Assembly: GCA_963733375.1 (NCBI GenBank)
Contig: CAVTDB010000003.1
Coordinates: 1-64,000 of the forward strand
DNA: 64,000 nucleotides
Reading direction: 5' to 3'
Origin: Nitrospirota bacterium
GTDB taxonomy: Bacteria; Nitrospirota; JACRHJ01
Shown: piece by piece, positions 3,853 to 34,649 of the stretch
Position numbering within the stretch: the stretch's first letter is position 1
Layout: each line of letters opens with the position of its first letter
Program-made: the position numbers and the translations under genes
The notes under the pieces: generated by a model
Seen by the model: only the letters and a program-made list of their open reading frames with translations
The model's database searches: none
What the model was told of the DNA's origin: nothing

Positions 3853-5906
3853 TTAATACGCATTCAGCGGCAATACTAACTTCTGCCCCGGATATATAAG
3901 GTTTGGATTTTTAATAAAGCGATTCCTCTTCCAAATTCTCCTCCATAAGAGCGGGTCGCATAGCTCTGCACCTGCAATGTCCCGGAGAGTATCATTTTTC
4001 TTTACGGTATAATACCTTCCTTTCTCAACTTTCTTAAATAGTGCAATAAAATCGGGGTTGTTTCGATATGCTTCAAAAGCCGGTCTATTTTCTAAATCTT
4101 CTTGAAGCGGAAAGCTTTCCACAATTATTTCCGGCATTGTTCCAACCAGATTTTTTAAAGCCGAAATCATAAGACGCTTTTTACCGAGCAAGGCGTAAAC
4201 CTCCGCTTCAATATCTGTATTATGATAAACCCCGGACGCTCGCAAAGAGTTTAAAATATCTTTTGCCTCATCTCCGGTCAGTTCCTTTGTTTCTTTTTTG
4301 CAATGCAATTGATAAATTGATTGAAGCAGGCGCAAAATTACTATCGCATGCTTAATGTCTGTTTAAAATCCTTTATCGCCGCGTCATAATTTTTTAACAT
4401 GATGTAATCATATCCTCTATAGTTATAGGTATATTTGTTCGGGTATATCTTTAATACCTTGTCATATTCAGCGAATGCCTCTTTAAAACCGCCTGCTTTT
4501 CCAAATAACCATCCCTTGCCGTTATAAGCAGAAGCTGCTTGACTTGGATACGGATTCCGCATGTCATCATAGGCTTTCCAAGCCTCCTTAAATCTTTTCA
4601 TCCTTATCAGAATGTTAGCTTTTAAAAGCAGGGCGTCATTTAATACACACATATCGATAGACTTATTGACAAAACAAAGGGCTTCCTCGTACACACCGAT
4701 GTTATAATAAACTCTGGCTACGTTCATGTAAGCCATTTCAAACATTAAACTGTTTTGGTCTTCCGCTTGCGGTCTCAATTCCAGTTGCTTGTAATACGCA
4801 TCCAATGCACTGGCATATTCTTTAAGCCCCAGGTACGCCCCCCCTTTTATGCCATAGGCAAGGACGAGGCCCCAAACGTCTTTTTGAGACTCTAATTCTA
4901 TGCATTTATCGGCATTGGCTATTGCCTCTTCATATCTTCTCATCTCGTAAAAAGTGTACGCCTTTCCTCCATAGCCTTCCGCACTCTTTTCCGCACTCTT
5001 CGGCGCCATATCAATATATTTCTGATAATCATTTAATGCCTTATCATATTGGCCGATCCTGCGATAGCATTCTCCTCTGTTAAAATAATTACTCGTAACA
5101 TCGGGCTTAGCTTGTATTTTTTCAGTATAATTTTCTATTGAGTTTAAGTTATTCACTGCATCCTGAAGTATTTCTACAATATCCTTAAAGCCTTTATCGT
5201 CCGCGAACTTCATCGCGGTATTGCCATTGGAATCCGTTGCGTTAACGTCAGCGCCATTTGCAATCAGTATCTTCGCACACTCTGCATTGTCTTTATCGGC
5301 CGCTGCCATCAAAGCCGTGGCTCCGCTCGGATTCTTCGCGTTCACGTCCGCGCCATTGTCTATTAGAGTCTGTACACAGTCAACATAGCCGTAAATAACC
5401 GCCAGAATCAACACAGTACAGCCCTCGGAATTCTTCGCGTTCACGTCCGCGCCATTGTCTATTAGAGTCTGTACACAGTCAGCATGGCCGTAAGTAGCCG
5501 CCAGAATCAACACAGTCCAACCCTCGGAATTCTTCGCGTTCACGTCCGCGCCATTGTCTATTAGAGTCTTTACACAGTCAACATGGCCGACAACAGCCGA
5601 AAGCATCAGCGCGGTCCAGCCAAGCGAATCCGCTTCATCCACATCCGCGCCGCTGGCAAGCAGGGCCTTTACACAGTCCAGGTGGCCCCAGCGAGCCGCA
5701 AACTGCAGCGCCGTAAGGCCATCGGAGTCCTTTGCGTTTACGTCCGCCCCTTTGGCAATATAGCTTTTTACTGCTTCAATATCGCCCTTACGGGCTGCGG
5801 TGACGAGATCGCCGTTTATATTCGCCCATGAGATGACGGACGTGAACGTGAGCGAAACGAAAACAATCGCGGCTGCAATAATACCCGTTAAAGGTTTCAT
5901 CAACAT
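3853..5906 (-). CDS. Secreted ankyrin-repeat + TPR + C-terminal LysM protein (probably one gene split near 4290-4345)
   Basis: Signal-like N-terminus; several GADVNAK...G.T.L ankyrin repeats; TPRs; ORF 3853-4335 ends in LysM (YTVKKNDTLRDIA...NPNLIYPGQKLVLP); a TPR-like DSNFAPASINLSIAL bridges the break in another frame. Confidence 0.75.
5330..5590. repeat. 99-bp tandem repeats encoding near-identical ankyrin units
   Basis: attcttcgcgttcacgtccgcgccattgtctattagagtct recurs three times at 99-bp spacing. Confidence 0.9.
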
Positions 5907-5992
5907 TCCCTGGAAAATTAGGGGAAATTAAGGGATACATAAATGGAAAAATCAACGAGGGGGGCCGGTAACGCCCCCCTGAAATTTATCCT

Positions 5993-6487
5993 CTACTCCT
6001 TAATCAGCGACGTCATCTCCGGCACGGTAAGCACCGCGTCTATGCTGTTCTCTTCCCACTTGCGCGAGGGGCCCCAGTCCATTATCACCAGCACGGGCTT
6101 CACCTCGAACCAGCCCTCCTTCACCTTCGTTATGGTCTCTTTGTGCGGCAATATCCCCGCCACGTCCGCATGGCAGAAAATAGCCAGGCCTTCCTGGGCG
6201 TTCTCCCGTATCACGGACTCAAGCTGGTCCGCCTTGTCCAGGCGGCCAAGCCGTCTGTCCGTATCCACCTTCGATACGTCGTCCGAACCAAGCTCTTCCA
6301 GCGTAAGGAGCGCCGTGTCGAGACACCGGGCCGCCGGCGACGATACCGCCTTCTGGACCCGGTATCTTTCGCCAAGCTTCCCCTTCACCATGTCCACCAC
6401 CTGCTCCACTTCGTACCTCCCGGTGAGGCTGAGCCTCCTGGGCGGCCTGTTCGCGGTCTTCGCATGAGTTATGATGACTATCTTCAT
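5993..6487 (-). CDS. SixA-like histidine phosphatase superfamily protein (degenerate motif)
   Basis: IIT-HA in place of RHG/RHA; LSLTG, SSPAARCLDTA and downstream FCH. Confidence 0.6.
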   Translation of the reverse strand: MKIVIITHAKTANRPPRRLSLTGRYEVEQVVDMVKGKLGERYRVQKAVSSPAARCLDTALLTLEELGSDDVSKVDTDRRLGRLDKADQLESVIRENAQEGLAIFCHADVAGILPHKETITKVKEGWFEVKPVLVIMDWGPSRKWEENSIDAVLTVPEMTSLIKE

Positions 6488-29860: not shown

Positions 29861-31786
29861 ATGAAAAAACATAAGGTCATATTCCAGCCGTCAGGCGTCA
29901 GCGGCGAGATAAACGACGGGGCCACCCTGTTAGATGCGGCGCGCCAGCTTGGCGCGGGCCTGGAGAGTATCTGCGGCGGCAAGGGCGTCTGCGGCAAGTG
30001 CAAGGTGCGGGTGGAAGAGGGCAATTTCGAGAGTGACGGCATAGACTCGAAGATGTCCCATTTAAGCGGTTTGACCGATGCGGAGAAGAAATTTATCTGC
30101 CCCTCGGACGGCCCCGGCACGAGGCTCGCCTGCCTTTGCCGTGTGCACGGAGACGTGAAGATTTTCGTGCCCGAGGCGTCCAGGGCCGGGAAGCAGGTAG
30201 TGCGAAAGGGCGCGCGCGAGGTTTCGGTAGACGTACAGCCTGCCGCAAGAAAATACTTCGTCCAGCTGGCTCCCCCGTCGCTGCAGGACATGGGCGAGGG
30301 AGACCAGGAACGCCTTCAAAATGCCCTTCAGGCGCAGTACGGGCTTTCCCGCCTGTCGGTTGATTATTCCGTCCTGAAGGGCATTCAGGATACGTTAAGA
30401 AAAGGCGGGTGGAACGTTACCGTTACGGTATGGCGCGGGAAAGAGATAGTGAAGCTGGAGCCCGGGTTTGCCCCGAATCCGTTTACGGGCTCGCGGTTGA
30501 CGTCGGCACCACCACCGTGGCCGGGTATCTGTGCGACCTTGTCACCGGAAAGGTAGTGGGGACGGAGTCCGCTATCAATCCGCAGGTCGTCTACGGCGAA
30601 GACGTGATGTCCAGGATCACTTACGCCATGTCGAACCCGGACGGCCTCGCCGTTATGCAGGCGGCAATCAGGGAATGCATAAACGGGATAATCGGCAGGC
30701 TGACCGGCGGCATCGGCGGCGGGCAGTCTATCGTGGACATGACGGTCGTCTTCAATACCGTCATGCACCATATTTTCCTTGGCATAGACCCGGCAAACAT
30801 CGGCGTCGCCCCGTTCATCCCGGCATTGGAGCGGCCCATGAACGTAAAGGCGCGCGAGCTGGGTATAGACATCAACCCGTCCTCGTACATACACGTCCTC
30901 CCGGTGGTGGCGGGGTTTGTCGGCCCGGACAATGTCGGCGTCCTGATAGCCGAGGAGCCGTATAAGTCAGCCGAAAAAGTGCTGATAATCGACATCGGCA
31001 CGAACGGGGAGCTGCTGCTTGGCAACAAAGACGGCGTATCTTCCGCATCCTGCGCCACCGGCCCGGCTTTCGAGGGGGCACAGATAAAGTTCGGGATGCG
31101 GGCCGCGAGAGGCGCGATAGAGAGCGTGAAAATAGACCGGCAGACAAAGGAGCCCTCGTTCAAGGTAATCGGCGGCACGAAGGCCAATGGCCTCTGCGGC
31201 TCCGGAGTTATAGACGCCGTGGCCGGGCTTTTCAAGGCCGGGATAATCGACAAGACCGGCAGGTTCGTAATGGACCCGGACACGGCCCGTACGGGGGGCA
31301 GGGTAAGGAGGGACGCCAAGGGGAAGCCCGAATATGTCCTTGCCTGGAAGGACGAGACCGCCCTTGAGACCGACATAACCATTACCCAGGCGGACGTGCG
31401 GGCGGTCCAGCTTGCCAAGGGGGCGCTATACGCCGGCGCGAAGCTTCTTATGCGGAAGATGGGCGTGGAAAAAGTCGATAAGGTGATACTCGCGGGCGCG
31501 TTCGGGAGCTATATAAACAAGGAATCGGCGCTGACGCTCGGGATGTTCCCGGAGTGCGCCCTGGACAATATTTACGCCGTGGGGAACGCGGCGGGAGACG
31601 GCGCGGTAATGGCCCTTATAAATATCGGGAAAAAGGGAAGAGGCCGAAAGGGAAGCGCGGAAGCTTAAGTACATGGAGATAGCGATGGAGCCGGACTTCC
31701 AGGAGGAGTTCCTTGCGGCGATGGATATCCCGGCGCGGGGATTTGACAAATCCGTTAATAGTGGTATAATAGAGTTTAATGAGTGA
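29861..31786 (+). CDS. ASKHA-domain (DUF4445) reductive activator of corrinoid proteins, RACo/RamA-like (frameshifted)
   Basis: 2Fe-2S CGGKGVCGKC...RLAC; DVGTTT, DIGTNGE, CATGPAFEG, GLCGSG, AGAFG, VGNAAG. Confidence 0.9.
31743..31770 (+). promoter_or_regulatory. Consensus sigma70 promoter with extended -10
   Basis: TTGACA-N16-TATAAT with TG upstream of the -10. Confidence 0.8.
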
Positions 31787-31880
31787 GGGATAAATTCAGT
31801 ACCGTAAAGAGGCAAAAACTCGAAAGAGAAAAAAGCCTCCGAAAAGGGAAGAATAAAATTCCTTGCTCATTGTTTTTTTT
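31778..31880 (+). ncRNA. Candidate structured ncRNA, copy 1 (~94 nt plus U-tail)
   Basis: 5' AAUGAGUGAGGGAU pairs with 3' AUUCCUUGCUCAUU; CUC-GAAA-GAG hairpin; T8 tail; homologous to copy 2. Confidence 0.7.
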
Positions 31881-31926
31881 ATTCCTTTTTATTCCTTCAC
31901 GAATTTAAGCCGTGGAGTTCATGCAG
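31876..31926 (-). pseudogene. Degenerate duplicate of the msrB 3' end
   Basis: ttattccttcacgaatttaagccgtggagttcatgcag resembles ttattccttcacgaatataagcgctgcggagttcatgcag at 32175-32214. Confidence 0.75.
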
Positions 31927-31945
31927 GACCAGTTACCGGACCGAT

Positions 31946-31973
31946 TTGACAAATTCCGGGACGGTGGTAGAAT
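31946..31973 (+). promoter_or_regulatory. Sigma70 promoter with extended -10 (second copy)
   Basis: TTGACA-N16-TAGAAT with TG upstream of the -10. Confidence 0.8.
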
Positions 31974-31980
31974 AGGAAAT

Positions 31981-32082
31981 AATGAGTAAGGAATAAATTC
32001 GGAACCGTAAAGAGGCCAAAACTCGAAAGAGCAATAACCTTCGATAAGGGAAAGAATTAAAATTCCTTGCTCATTGTTTTTT
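31981..32082 (+). ncRNA. Candidate structured ncRNA, copy 2 (~95 nt plus U-tail)
   Basis: 5' AAUGAGUAAGGAAU pairs with 3' AUUCCUUGCUCAUU; same CUC-GAAA-GAG hairpin; T6 tail. Confidence 0.7.
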
Positions 32083-32174
32083 GGGGCGGGGCCCCTCCCA
32101 AGGCTACATCCCGCCCGCTCATCTCTTCAAGTGCGCGTCCGGCGTATCCAGCCCGGTCCGTTTTTATTTCTTTT

Positions 32175-32721
32175 TTATTCCTTCACGAATATAAGCGCTG
32201 CGGAGTTCATGCAGTAGCGAAGGCCGGTGGGCGCGGGTCCGTCGTCGAATACGTGGCCCAGGTGCGCGTCGCACCTGCTGCAAAGCACCTCGGTCCTCGT
32301 GATAAAAAAACCTTTATCAATTTTCGTATATACGTTTTCTTTCGCTATCGGCTGCCAGAAGCTCGGCCACCCGGTCCTGGAATCGTACTTGGCGTCGGAA
32401 CTGAACAGGTCGAGTCCGCAGCAGACGCATTTATATATCCCTTTTTCGTGGTTGTCCCAGTAGGCGTTCTCATACGCCGGTTCCGTACCCGCTTCCCTCG
32501 CCACATGGAACTGCTCCGGCGTGAGCAGCTTGCGCCACTCATCTTTTGATTTTATTACCTTCTCCGACATGATATATCCTTTCTTCCCGGCCGAATAAAC
32601 CCTTATCGCATGCGGCCTTACAGCAGCCGAAGCATGACCGGCGCGGCCTTGCCGAGCATGAGCATACGGCAAGCGCCGCAAGTGCCAGTATCGCCGCCGA
32701 AAATTTCATCTGGTCCTCCAT
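32175..32721 (-). CDS. msrB: Peptide-methionine (R)-S-oxide reductase, probably with a frameshifted N-terminal signal (core starts at 32570)
   Basis: YKCVCC, SRTGWPSF, HLGHVFDDGP, RYCMNSAAL. Confidence 0.93.
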
Positions 32722-32837
32722 ATTTTGTTTATTATAACATTTGTTCGTTATGTTATATTTTTAGAACACCTTTTCTTTTCTTTTACGAAAAGTCATCGCG
32801 AGAAAGAAAACAAAAGAAAACGGGGGGTAAGGGACAA

Positions 32838-33686
32838 TTGCAGATAAAATGGGGGCCTGCGGTCATTCTGGCCGCCTACGTAATCCTGCTCGTCCTCGAA
32901 ACTCTATTCCCGTTAAGGGGCAGGAAGCTTCCCCGAAAAGGCCGGTTCCTGGTAAACGCGTCCATGACCGCGCTCGTATTCTTAGCCGGGGGTTTAATCG
33001 TCCGGACGGTCGGCCTCTCCGTTGCGGCGTGGGCCGAAGCGAAACCCTTCGGGCTCCTTCACATTGCCCGATTGCCGGCCTGGGCCAGGTTTGCCCTGGG
33101 CTTCCTGCTCATGGACCTCTCCTTTTACTACTGGCACCGGATAAACCACGAACTGCCGATACTCTGGAGGTTCCATAACGTCCACCACGCAGACCCGGAC
33201 ATGGACGTCACCACCTCGTTCAGGTTTCACTTGGTCGAGGTGCTTTATTCCACGGGGTTCCGGGCGCTTCAGGTGCTGATAACCGGCGTGTCGCCTTTTA
33301 CCTATGCCGTTTACGAGATTTTCTTCGCCTGCGAAACGGCGTTCCATCACAGTAACCTCCGCCTCCCCGTCAGGTTAGAGTCATTACTGAACAAGATAAT
33401 CGTCACGCCCCGCATGCACGGCATACACCACTCTTTCGTCATGGAGGAGACCAACTCGAACTACTCCACTATCTTCAGGTGGTGGGACTGGCTTCACGGC
33501 ACCCTGGACCTGGGAGTGCCGCAGAAGGATATCACTATCGGCGTACCCGCCTACTCAGCGCCGGGGGATAACGGTTTTATGCGGCTTAACCTCATGCCGT
33601 TCGAAAAGCAGCGGGATTACTGGAGGCTGCCGGACGGCGGGATCAAAAAGCGCGGCGCGCACGACAGAAGGGCAATGGTGGAATAA
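32838..33686 (+). CDS. Sterol desaturase/fatty acid hydroxylase family protein
   Basis: YYWHRINH, FHNVHH, FHHSN, HGIHH histidine boxes. Confidence 0.88.
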   Translation: MQIKWGPAVILAAYVILLVLETLFPLRGRKLPRKGRFLVNASMTALVFLAGGLIVRTVGLSVAAWAEAKPFGLLHIARLPAWARFALGFLLMDLSFYYWHRINHELPILWRFHNVHHADPDMDVTTSFRFHLVEVLYSTGFRALQVLITGVSPFTYAVYEIFFACETAFHHSNLRLPVRLESLLNKIIVTPRMHGIHHSFVMEETNSNYSTIFRWWDWLHGTLDLGVPQKDITIGVPAYSAPGDNGFMRLNLMPFEKQRDYWRLPDGGIKKRGAHDRRAMVE

Positions 33687-34649
33687 ATGAGATTCGAGGA
33701 AAAGATAGCGGGCTATACGGGCGGCGGGCTTAGGTGTACGGATATCGAAGTCCTGCAGGTGAACCTCGGGCTTAAATGCAACCAGGCTTGCCTCCATTGC
33801 CACGTCTCCGCCTCGCCGGATAGAGACGAGGTGATGCAGTGGCCGACCATGTCGTTAGTCCTTGACGCGGTGACTCAGGCCCGGCCGAAGCTCGTCGATC
33901 TGACGGGCGGCGCGCCGGAGATAAACCCTGATTTCAGGAGGTTCGTATCGGCCCTTTGCGACGGCGGTTCTACTGTCCAGGTAAGGACGAACTTAACCGC
34001 GCTCCTTCTGCCGGGAAACGAGGACCTGCCCGAATTTCTGGCACAGCGAAATGTCCGGCTTGCGGCTTCCATGCCCTGCTATCTCGAGGAAAACGTGCGC
34101 GCGCAACGCGGGGCGGGGGTATACGAAGACAGCATAACCGCGATAAAAAAACTGAACGCGCTTGGATACGGCGACTCATCCGGTCTGTCTATCCGGGCTC
34201 TCGGCTCGACCTTATCTACAACCCCGGCGGGACGTATCTGCCGCCTGGTCAGGGCGCGCTCGAAGCGGACTACAGAAGGGAGCTTTCGCTTCAGGTTCGG
34301 AGTAGTATTTTCGAACCTCCTGACTATCGCCAACATGCCGCTCGGGCGTTTTCGCTCTCAGCTGCCGGGAGAAAAAGAGCGCGAATACATGGAGCTTCTG
34401 GAAGGGTCTTTCAACCCGGAAACCCTGGAGGGGGTCATGTGCAGGCGCCAGGTGAGCGTCGGCTGGGACGGGCGGCTCTACGACTGCGATTTCAACCTCG
34501 CGCTCGGCCTCCCCATAGCCGGGGACGCGCCGCGCACCATAGCGGATTTCGACGCCTTAAAGCTTGCCCGCCGGAGCATCGCCACGGGCCCCCACTGCTA
34601 CGGCTGCACGGCCGGATGCGGCTCTTCCTGCAAAGGCGCGTTAGTATAA
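33687..34649 (+). CDS. arsS: Arsenosugar biosynthesis radical SAM protein (DUF3641), with local frameshifts
   Basis: LQVNLGLKCNQACLHCHV, DLTGGAPE, ASMPCY, YDCDFN, HCYGCTAGCGSSC. Confidence 0.88.
   Translation: MRFEEKIAGYTGGGLRCTDIEVLQVNLGLKCNQACLHCHVSASPDRDEVMQWPTMSLVLDAVTQARPKLVDLTGGAPEINPDFRRFVSALCDGGSTVQVRTNLTALLLPGNEDLPEFLAQRNVRLAASMPCYLEENVRAQRGAGVYEDSITAIKKLNALGYGDSSGLSIRALGSTLSTTPAGRICRLVRARSKRTTEGSFRFRFGVVFSNLLTIANMPLGRFRSQLPGEKEREYMELLEGSFNPETLEGVMCRRQVSVGWDGRLYDCDFNLALGLPIAGDAPRTIADFDALKLARRSIATGPHCYGCTAGCGSSCKGALV

What the first reader, a model, noticed from the sequence alone, without database searches (positions are those of the whole stretch)
31743..32082. Tandem pair of independently promoted ~95-nt A-rich structured RNAs (candidate new ncRNA class)
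Seen: two homologous units 203 bp apart. Each has TTGACA-N16-TA(T/G)AAT with an extended -10 TG, and homology resumes 7 nt after the -10 at AATGAG. The first ~14 nt pair with the last ~14 nt, and differences between copies keep pairing (G-U becomes A-U). The interior has an invariant CUC-GAAA-GAG GNRA hairpin and short CC/GG and GAGG/CCU(C/U) helices separated by A-runs, folding as either a rod with A-rich internal loops or a three-hairpin junction. A U-tract follows. Promoter spacers have diverged while the boxes and RNA are conserved. Both begin with a 4-codon AUG...UAA, and no longer ORF is conserved. It matches no tRNA, SRP, 6S or riboswitch I recognise. Inference: highly expressed stand-alone RNAs, possibly protein-binding decoys or scaffolds.
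Basis: partly seen in the sequence, partly recalled or inferred. Interest (0 to 1): 0.85.

Follow-up and report, generated by a model that had tools for sequence, protein, structure and literature searches.

The report
New small RNA family in Nitrospirota
Two neighbouring copies of a roughly 95-base, rod-shaped non-coding RNA gene, each with its own strong promoter and terminator, belong to a previously undescribed small-RNA family confined to one little-known group of peat and wetland Nitrospirota; its function is still unknown.

Summary
Two 92%-identical units (RNA 31778-31880 and 31981-32082, + strand) each follow a near-perfect TTGACA-16-TATAAT/TAGAAT promoter. Each folds into a rod closed by a 14-bp helix that runs straight into a U-tract. 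Rfam 15 has no match. SRP and 6S RNA lie elsewhere in the genome.

The RNA is conserved, with its promoter, in relatives: three genera of one Nitrospirota family, plus 5 metagenome contigs. It was found in 0 of 139 genomes of other families in the phylum. Compensatory changes support the rod.

A second subfamily, next to birA, shares the promoter and terminal helix but has a different rod interior.

The tandem pair is a recent duplication seen only in this genome; it carried along the 3' tail of msrB. The GAAA loop is not conserved.

Expression is not shown, and function is inferred only. I favour a trans-acting, protein-bound structured sRNA. Hfq genes are present in 5 of 5 genomes; CsrA and Ro were found in 0 of 5.

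Verdict: a real, new but ordinary-looking sRNA family of moderate interest.

The parts
31743..31770 (+). Promoter of copy 1: TTGACA, 16 nt, TG-n-TATAAT
   Evidence: 12 of 12 consensus positions. The ATTTGACAAA -35 block is kept in all 11 subfamily-A loci.
31778..31880 (+). sRNA copy 1 (subfamily A). P1 is 31778-31791 paired with 31858-31871; the GUUUUUUUU tail is 31872-31880.
   Evidence: fold -30.6 kcal/mol, z -4.47. CM R2 109 bits.
31881..31930 (.). Degenerate duplicate of the 3' end of msrB (minus-strand sense), carried along by the tandem duplication
   Evidence: aligns with 32160-32220, the true msrB 3' end.
31946..31973 (+). Promoter of copy 2: TTGACA, 16 nt, TG-n-TAGAAT
   Evidence: 11 of 12 consensus positions.
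31981..32082 (+). sRNA copy 2 (subfamily A, close to the genus consensus). P1 is 31981-31994 paired with 32062-32075; the GUUUUUU tail is 32076-32082.
   Evidence: -29.3 kcal/mol, z -5.51. CM R2 120.9 bits.
32077..32172 (.). G+C-rich 96-nt stretch between copy 2 and msrB that relatives lack
   Evidence: gap in unit 1; an RNA-library contig of a relative joins 32076 to 32173. G002 runs straight from the U-tract into the msrB tail.
32175..32681 (-). msrB (SelR domain), convergent with the sRNA genes
   Evidence: PF01641, E 7e-51.
29861..31785 (+). RACo-like 2Fe-2S/ASKHA gene upstream, co-directional with the sRNAs. Its 3' end overlaps the copy-1 promoter. It is read in three frames in this assembly.
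   Evidence: The orthologue in G001 is intact and ends at the TGA inside the -35 hexamer.

Best explanation
These are two copies of a stand-alone small non-coding RNA gene from a family restricted to one family-level lineage of uncultured Nitrospirota.

Each gene is a complete transcription unit. It has a strong sigma-70-type promoter (ATTTGACAAA, 16 nt, TAnnnT). Its inferred start lies 5-7 nt after the -10 box, at the first base of a 13-14-bp terminal helix (P1). P1 closes the whole RNA and, with the U-tract behind it, doubles as the intrinsic terminator.

Between the P1 strands lies a rod of four short helices separated by A/G-rich internal loops. The RNA is about 42% A in a 55% G+C genome.

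The lineage has copied this gene repeatedly. One subfamily sits beside birA, a second (this one) sits at varying sites, and this genome has a fresh tandem duplicate.

Shown: sequence, promoter, helix and terminator conservation, compensatory changes, strand, and no known family.

Inferred: that it is transcribed as a discrete ~95-100-nt RNA and acts in trans.

Most likely mechanism (about 0.4 of the total): it works as a protein-bound structured RNA. The partner would recognise the conserved terminal helix with its flanking A-runs and U-tail, and the variable rod interior would specialise each paralogue. Hfq is the only candidate partner found in the genomes, at three Hfq-domain genes each.
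For: Promoter:
- The promoter matches 12/12 and 11/12 consensus positions.
- The same -35 block and -10 spacing stand before 11 of 11 subfamily-A loci (9 distinct sequences) and 6 of 6 single-rod subfamily-B loci; the two-rod RNA at the G004 birA locus has the same -35 block as well. The spacers in between differ.

Structure:
- Every member folds alone into the same rod.
- On the 9 distinct A sequences, 95.1% of cells pair. Six pairs changed on both sides (0 of 500 shuffles reach this). Slid controls pair only 38-53%.
- Across 14 A+B sequences, P1 shows compensatory changes at positions 2 (A-U/C-G), 3 (U-A/A-U) and 9 (A-U/G-C), and wobble switches at 7, 8 and 12.
- Subfamily B has 3 more pairs changed on both sides.

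Strand:
- The G-U pairs in P1, the U-tract, and the weaker fold of the opposite strand of copy 1 (-22.6 against -30.6 kcal/mol) fix the strand. For copy 2 the opposite strand folds nearly as well (see evidence against).

Not a known RNA:
- Rfam gives nothing.
- SRP RNA and 6S RNA are present elsewhere in 5 of 5 genomes.

Not tied to one neighbour:
- It is flanked by RACo/msrB in genus g1, follows a B12-radical-SAM gene in G007, has other neighbours in G004, and lies between a CopD-like gene and birA for subfamily B.

Candidate partners:
- Hfq-domain genes occur in 5 of 5 genomes. CsrA and Ro/TROVE were found in 0 of 5.
Against: - No transcript ends are shown. The only RNA-library contig over the region (two runs that look like one data set, depth 2.9) extends beyond both predicted ends, so it could be msrB read-through or DNA.
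- Diversity is small: 9 distinct A and 6 B sequences, all closely related. The A alignment was fitted to the model, which favours the structure.
- For copy 2 the opposite strand folds nearly as well (-28.4 kcal/mol, z -5.1).
- Runs of A-R-N triplets, a known Hfq-binding feature (from my own knowledge), are no longer than in shuffles (p 0.2-0.9).
- No protein partner is indicated by gene neighbourhood.
- The family was not found in 2 of 6 genera (G003 is 93% complete, G005 91%).
Confidence: 0.6

Rival explanations
1. It is a classical base-pairing (Hfq-dependent) sRNA. A conserved exposed segment pairs with mRNAs, and the P1 stem plus U-tail serves only as terminator and Hfq anchor. The candidate segments are the apical loop (C-R-UAAAAA in subfamily B and in the G007 copy) and the A-rich internal loops.
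For: - Hfq genes are present in 5 of 5 genomes.
- The RNA ends in an intrinsic terminator with a U-tail.
- Paralogues share their ends and differ in their middles, as recalled for OmrA/OmrB. PrrF1/PrrF2, also recalled, resemble the nearly identical tandem pair.
- An 8-nt A-rich apical loop is kept in 5 of 6 B members and in G007.
Against: - The 5' end is locked in a 13-14-bp helix.
- The apical loop is not conserved within subfamily A: GAAA, AUAA, UUAACU, CGUAAAAA.
- The most conserved bases lie in helices and closed internal loops.
- BLAST of the RNA against its own genome finds no complement longer than 17 nt (E > 0.7).
Confidence: 0.25
2. It is mainly a bidirectional terminator or insulator between convergent genes. 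The promoter makes only a short by-product RNA with no trans function.
For: - At the loci where the flanking genes could be named, the element sits between a co-directional upstream gene, whose 3' end the promoter abuts or overlaps, and a convergent downstream gene. At the G004 and G007 loci this rests on unnamed ORFs.
- The opposite strand of copy 2 also folds well.
- An RNA-library contig runs from msrB through the hairpin and stops 17 nt beyond it (contigs cannot show ends).
Against: - A plain terminator needs neither a consensus promoter kept at fixed distance in every member nor ~65 nt of conserved interior with its own compensatory changes.
- The G-U pairs in P1 become A-C mismatches on the other strand.
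- Ordinary short G+C hairpin terminators serve elsewhere, for example after birA in G003.
Confidence: 0.1
3. It is not an RNA gene at all. Instead it is a DNA-level inverted repeat (a miniature mobile element) or a leaderless 4-codon mini-ORF.
For: - It has 14-bp terminal inverted repeats.
- The element sits at different sites in different genera.
- AUG stands at position 2 in genera g1 and g6.
Against: - There are only 1-2 copies per genome (3 counting subfamily B in G002), and no further copies in G000.
- G-U wobble pairs and compensatory changes point to selection on RNA.
- The AUG and the stop are missing in the G004-type and in subfamily B.
- No target-site duplications or transposase were seen.
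Confidence: 0.03

Closest known systems
Duplicated enterobacterial/pseudomonad sRNAs such as OmrA/OmrB and PrrF1/PrrF2 (recalled from my own knowledge, not from a call)
   Same: These are short stand-alone RNAs with their own promoter and an intrinsic terminator. They are present as adjacent or paralogous copies. OmrA/OmrB, as recalled, keep their 5' and 3' ends and differ in the middle, like subfamilies A and B here; PrrF1/PrrF2 resemble the nearly identical tandem pair.
   Different: There is no sequence or Rfam relationship. Here the conserved 5' and 3' ends pair with each other, so the 5' end is not a free seed. The phylum is different, and targets and regulator are unknown.
Y RNA / YrlA (Ro60-bound RNAs)
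   Same: The RNA is about 100 nt. Its 5' and 3' ends form a long conserved stem, its interior is variable, and paralogues occur.
   Different: No Rfam match. No TROVE/Ro60 gene in 0 of 5 genomes. No tRNA-like module, and it is not next to an rsr gene.
Bacterial small SRP RNA (4.5S) and 6S RNA
   Same: They are rod-like RNAs closed by a terminal helix, with purine-rich internal loops that bind protein.
   Different: Both are already present elsewhere in every genome tested. The candidate scores nothing against their models. It is lineage-restricted, not universal.
CsrB/RsmZ-type protein sponges
   Same: They are strongly transcribed, purine-rich small RNAs found in multiple copies.
   Different: No CsrA gene in 0 of 5 genomes. 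GGA motifs are not displayed in hairpin loops and are not conserved.

Membership tests
Any Rfam 15 family | Score at or above the family's gathering threshold | tested here: not met
   There were 0 matches in the 64-kb window. The best sub-threshold hit scored 22.4 bits against a threshold of 55.8, for a plastid 3'UTR motif. There were 0 matches at E <= 1 in four homologous loci.
Bacterial small SRP RNA | Match to RF00169, and being the genome's only SRP RNA | tested here: not met
   RF00169 hits of 73-75 bits lie at other loci in 5 of 5 genomes (G000:C2:82898-82997). None lies at this locus.
6S RNA | Match to RF00013; ~180-nt rod with a central bubble | tested here: not met
   RF00013 hits of 99-107 bits lie elsewhere in 5 of 5 genomes. 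The candidate is ~95 nt.
Y RNA | A Ro60 (TROVE) protein encoded in the genome, usually adjacent | tested here: not met
   PF05731 was found in 0 of 5 genomes, which are 81-97% complete.
CsrB/RsmZ-type sponge | CsrA present; repeated GGA in hairpin loops | tested here: not met
   PF02599 was found in 0 of 5 genomes. No conserved loop GGA is seen in alignment A7.
Hfq-associated sRNA | Hfq encoded in the genome | tested here: met
   PF17209 is above its cut-off in 5 of 5 genomes, with three hits each.
Hfq-associated sRNA | Intrinsic terminator hairpin with a 3' U-tail | tested here: met
   P1 is followed by 5-8 U in 14 of 14 members.
Hfq-associated sRNA | A-R-N repeats or other Hfq-binding sites beyond what composition gives | tested here: inconclusive
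   The longest A-R-N run is 2-4 triplets, which is no better than shuffles (p 0.2-0.9).
Hfq-associated sRNA | Physical binding to Hfq and Hfq-dependent stability | not testable with these tools
   This needs co-immunoprecipitation or gel-shift experiments.
Stand-alone bacterial sRNA gene (generic) | Own promoter and own terminator, conserved independently of the neighbouring genes | tested here: met
Stand-alone bacterial sRNA gene (generic) | A discrete transcript is observed | tested here: inconclusive
   The only evidence is a low-depth metatranscriptome contig that overruns both predicted ends.

The most novel reading that the evidence does not exclude
The rods are the RNA subunits of a lineage-specific ribonucleoprotein. 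The invariant terminal helix, with its A-run flanks and U-tail, would be the docking site for a dedicated protein, possibly one of the extra tandem Hfq-domain paralogues. The exchangeable rod interiors (subfamilies A and B, and the two-rod form in G004) would carry different specificities. That would make this a modular scaffold or decoy RNA class unrelated to 6S, Y, CsrB or SRP RNA.
Probability: 0.25. Interest if true: 0.65.

Novelty: new member of a known kind. Interest (0 to 1): 0.4.

Why it matters
Very few sRNAs are annotated in Nitrospirota. A 2022 review's Table 1, seen as a passage (PMC9029176), lists 3 distinct ones. None is known for this uncultured peat and wetland class.

This is a cleanly delimited RNA gene family, with promoter, start, structure, terminator, paralogues and a fresh duplication. 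It could be synthesised and tested directly.

If the conserved terminal helix proves to be a protein-docking module, it would add a new RNP scaffold type. If not, it is one more lineage-specific regulatory sRNA.

It is also a useful candidate for a new Rfam family, and the data describe the lineage's promoter consensus (ATTTGACAAA-16-TAnnnT).

Tried and rejected
- **Rfam.** Gathering and permissive thresholds gave nothing on the window or on four homologous loci.
- **Divergent SRP or 6S RNA.** Rejected, because both exist elsewhere.
- **CsrB-like and Y-RNA-like readings.** Rejected on absence of CsrA and Ro in 5 genomes, which are 81-97% complete, so absence is not proven.
- **A-R-N repeat enrichment for Hfq.** Not above shuffles.
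- **Expression from public runs.** 23 runs were listed, all with small shares of the sampled words. Four were laid, two RNA and two DNA. The RNA-library runs X19 and X20 give the same 200-nt contig, from a relative. It covers 31964-32076 joined to 32173-32259 at depth 2.9. It overruns both predicted RNA ends and cannot show strand, start or end, so there is no verdict on transcription. No laid contig bridges copy 1 to copy 2, so the tandem arrangement has no independent confirmation.
- **Special regulon behind the extended -35 block.** ATTTGACAAA occurs 10 times in G000 and 9 times in four relatives, mostly before ordinary genes. It is the lineage's strong-promoter consensus, not a special operator.
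- **More divergent members in G003 and G005.** A promoter-pattern search found none.
- **Weak CM hits after glnA** (G001:C30, G002:C4; 32-35 bits). They lack the promoter and look like plain long terminators, so I dropped them from all counts.
- **Pattern matches G005:C29, G001:C85 and G002:C7**. They are G+C-rich and coding-like, were not examined further, and were dropped.
- **Collection scans.** 73 of 78 metagenome loci and 29 of 33 genome loci failed the CM filter and were treated as chance.
- **Literature.** Two searches gave nothing on sRNAs of this lineage (listings only).
- **Target prediction.** Not attempted, because only G000 could be laid for scripts.
Full report
**1. What is in the sequence**

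The region 31743-32082 holds two homologous units 203 bp apart on the + strand.

- **Promoters.** Each unit starts with a sigma-70-type promoter. Copy 1 has TTGACA (31743), 16 nt, then TATAAT. Copy 2 has TTGACA (31946), 16 nt, then TAGAAT. Both have TG one base before the -10 box. They match 12/12 and 11/12 consensus positions and were the only two promoter-like sites in 31000-33000.
- **Similarity.** Homology resumes 7 nt after the -10 box. The RNA parts (31778-31880 and 31981-32082) are 92% identical, while the promoter spacers have diverged.
- **Fold.** Both fold into one rod: -30.6 kcal/mol (z -4.47) and -29.3 kcal/mol (z -5.51), with 0 of 200 shuffles as stable in either case. A 14-bp terminal helix P1 joins the first and last 14 nt. 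Inside are AUUC/GAAU, CC/GG, GAGG/CCUC and CUC-GAAA-GAG, separated by A/G-rich internal loops. G+U6-8 follows P1 directly.

**2. The pair is a recent local duplication**

- The repeat unit extends past the RNA. After the U-tract of copy 1 lies a degenerate copy (~31881-31930) of the last codons of msrB. The real msrB gene lies convergent at 32175-32681 (SelR domain, E 7e-51).
- Copy 2 carries an extra 96-nt G+C-rich stretch (32077-32172) that relatives lack.
- Relatives have a single strong copy at this locus.
- Copy 2 is close to the genus consensus. Copy 1 has drifted but keeps pairing. For example, A to G at P1 position 12 gives G-U, and GAGG/CCUC is lengthened to GAGGC/GCCUC.
- No independent contig bridges the two copies.

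**3. Organism and distribution**

- **The genome.** The window is contig C3 of a 2.39-Mb, 26-contig genome that is 81% complete.
- **Taxonomy.** The four loci from named records that passed the model are all titled 'MAG: Nitrospirota bacterium'. The genome's class, order and family hold only 12 species genomes.
BLAST found clear homologues in G001 and G002 (same genus) and in G007 (another genus). A covariance model built from these (R1) added G004 at 46.9 bits.
- **The rebuilt model.** With R2, G004 scores 90.8 bits. At E <= 0.001, 6 of 12 genomes of the class have a hit. Five of those are this RNA and one (G008) is the related subfamily B.
- **The rest of the phylum.** In a phylum sample of 151 genomes, all 6 with a hit belong to this family. 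The 139 genomes of 21 other families gave none (run with stricter filters).
- **Collection scans.** One pattern scan of metagenome contigs gave 78 loci, of which 5 passed the model: L043 = L045, L108, L097 (identical to G007 over the RNA and the flanks shown) and L040 (G004-like). The same scan of species genomes gave 33 loci, of which 4 passed. Those four are G001, G002, G004 and G007 again.

**4. Conservation of the transcription unit**

- All 11 subfamily-A loci (9 distinct sequences) carry ATTTGACAAA, a variable spacer, and a -10 hexamer (TATAAT, TAGAAT, TAAACT, TACACT or TACAAT). The hexamer ends 5-7 nt before the first base of P1. A U-run follows P1 in every case.
- So the boxes and their spacing are conserved while the spacers are not, which is what a working promoter would give.
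- ATTTGACAAA is not special to this RNA. It occurs 10 times in G000, each time in a promoter-like setting, mostly before ordinary genes.

**5. Structure support**

- **Single-sequence folds.** Each of the 14 members folds on its own into a rod closed by P1; the 9 distinct A sequences all give the same five-helix rod.
- **Pair counts in subfamily A.** On the model-fitted alignment of the 9 distinct A sequences:

| Measure | Observed | Control |
|---|---|---|
| Cells forming standard pairs | 95.1% | shuffles 90.7% |
| Pairs changed on both sides | 6 | shuffles mean 2.0; 0 of 500 reach 6 |
| Pairing with partners slid by 1-3 columns | | 38-53% |

  Three of the six doubly changed pairs lie in the AUUC/GAAU helix.
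- **Caveats.** The sequences are few and related, and the alignment leans towards the model.
- **Apical loop.** The CUC/GAG helix is kept, but its loop varies: GAAA in this genus, AUAA in the G004 type, UUAACU in L108 and CGUAAAAA in G007. The GNRA loop is therefore not a family feature.
- **Mini-ORF.** The 4-codon AUG...UAA is absent from the G004 type.

**6. A second subfamily**

- **Where it came from.** Weak model hits (32-37 bits) next to birA turned out to share more than a hairpin.
- **Members.** In G008, G009, G010 and G006 (4 of the 5 genomes of genus g5), in G002, and in G001 (found by eye after birA), the same promoter block (ATTTGACA-A/G-A, 16 nt, TATAAT or TATACT, then 7 nt) precedes an ~85-nt rod.
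- **Shared helix, different interior.** Its P1 (ACUGAGURGGGAA with UUCCCURYUCAGU) is the P1 of subfamily A with compensated differences, and a U-tract follows. The interior differs but is again a rod, with an 8-nt A-rich apical loop. That loop is C-R-UAAAAA in four B members (CGCAACAA in G006) and also in the subfamily-A copy of G007.
- **P1 covariation.** Across 14 A+B sequences, P1 changes on both sides at position 2 (A-U/C-G), position 3 (U-A/A-U) and position 9 (A-U/G-C). It changes by wobble at positions 7, 8 and 12.
- **Covariation within B.** The six B sequences add 3 doubly changed pairs.
- **G004 variant.** At the G004 birA locus the same promoter drives two rods in series.
- **G000.** It has no detectable birA, so its subfamily-B status is unknown in an 81%-complete assembly.
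- **No subfamily A after the RACo-like gene in G008**.
- **Overall pattern.** The lineage holds a small gene family that has been copied several times. Subfamily B is syntenic in three genera, and subfamily A sits at varying sites.

**7. Context**

- In genus g1 the order is RACo-like gene, then the sRNA, then convergent msrB. The -35 box lies inside the last codons of the RACo-like gene. In G001 the stop codon of that gene is the TGA of TTGACA.
- In G007 the RNA follows a B12-binding radical-SAM gene, with the RACo orthologue 3.5 kb upstream on the same contig.
- In G004 the neighbours are unnamed ORFs. Subfamily B lies between a CopD-like gene and convergent birA.
- No neighbour is shared by all members, which argues for action in trans. 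In the contexts where the flanking genes could be named, the element sits between convergent genes; at the G004 and G007 loci that arrangement rests on unnamed ORFs. This keeps a terminator role in play.

**8. What it is not**

- Rfam 15 gives no match at gathering thresholds. Nothing credible appears at E <= 10; the best hit scores 22.4 bits against a cut-off of 55.8. Four homologous loci give nothing either.
- SRP RNA (73-75 bits) and 6S RNA (99-107 bits) are found at other loci in 5 of 5 genomes.
- CsrA and Ro/TROVE were found in 0 of 5 genomes.
- Hfq-domain genes are present in 5 of 5 genomes, three each. However, A-R-N triplet runs are no longer than composition predicts.
- The own genome holds no complement to the RNA longer than 17 nt.

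**9. Expression**

- Of the 23 runs listed, none holds more than 15% of the sampled words.
- Two RNA-library runs, apparently one data set filed twice, hold a 200-nt contig of a relative. It covers 31964-32076 joined to 32173-32259 at depth 2.9.
- The contig begins 17 nt before the predicted start and runs 87 nt into msrB. It may be msrB read-through, DNA carry-over or an assembly of overlapping transcripts. It does not show a discrete sRNA.

**10. Reading**

- **What I conclude.** The evidence supports a real stand-alone sRNA gene family (about 0.85). It is new in the sense that it is absent from Rfam, and two literature searches found nothing on sRNAs of this lineage (listings only). A 2022 review's Table 1, seen as a passage, counts 3 annotated sRNAs for the whole phylum.
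- **Protein-bound structured RNA (about 0.4).** The best-conserved feature across paralogues is the terminal helix with its A-run flanks and U-tail, the 5' end is not free, and the interior is a closed rod with purine-rich loops. That pattern favours this mechanism.
- **Base-pairing sRNA (about 0.25).**
- **Mere bidirectional terminator (about 0.1).**
- **Limits.** None of these mechanisms is shown.
- **Score.** By kind it is an ordinary bacterial sRNA, and I score it as moderate interest.

Noticed in passing
window 29861-31785 (+): The RACo-like 2Fe-2S/ASKHA gene is split over three reading frames: 29861-30556, 30409-31668, and a C-terminal tail in a third frame. Its orthologue in G001 is one open frame. 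This is either frameshift errors in the assembly or a decaying gene.
   Followed up: partly
G000:C21 about 26219 and 25848 (- strand), outside the window; similar in L166 (G011): Two neighbouring units, each with the same ATTTGACAAA promoter, are followed by A-rich sequence carrying 4-5 repeats of AGAACCA-like words. They may be another duplicated small RNA with repeated binding motifs.
   Followed up: no
L174 2439-2613 (- strand), G004 birA locus: A single ATTTGACAAA promoter is followed by two rod hairpins in series and a U-tract. The 178-nt stretch folded has an MFE of -50 kcal/mol. This looks like a dimeric form of the birA-linked subfamily.
   Followed up: partly
G000:C26:444289-444474 (-), 419069-419245 (+) and 419289-419450 (+), outside the window: There are three Hfq-domain matches per genome in 5 of 5 genomes. 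Two of them lie directly adjacent, inside longer open frames.
   Followed up: no
window 5326-5621: A 99-bp unit is repeated 3.0 times (89% matches). It lies inside the window's lowest-G+C stretch (4001-6000, 44% against ~55%).
   Followed up: no
window 32077-32172: A G+C-rich 96-nt insert lies between copy 2 and msrB. It begins with a GGGGC-GG-GCCCC hairpin and is absent from relatives.
   Followed up: partly
window 33687-34649 (+): A radical-SAM protein with DUF3641 lies beside a fatty-acid-hydroxylase-family gene (32610-33686), just downstream of msrB.
   Followed up: no
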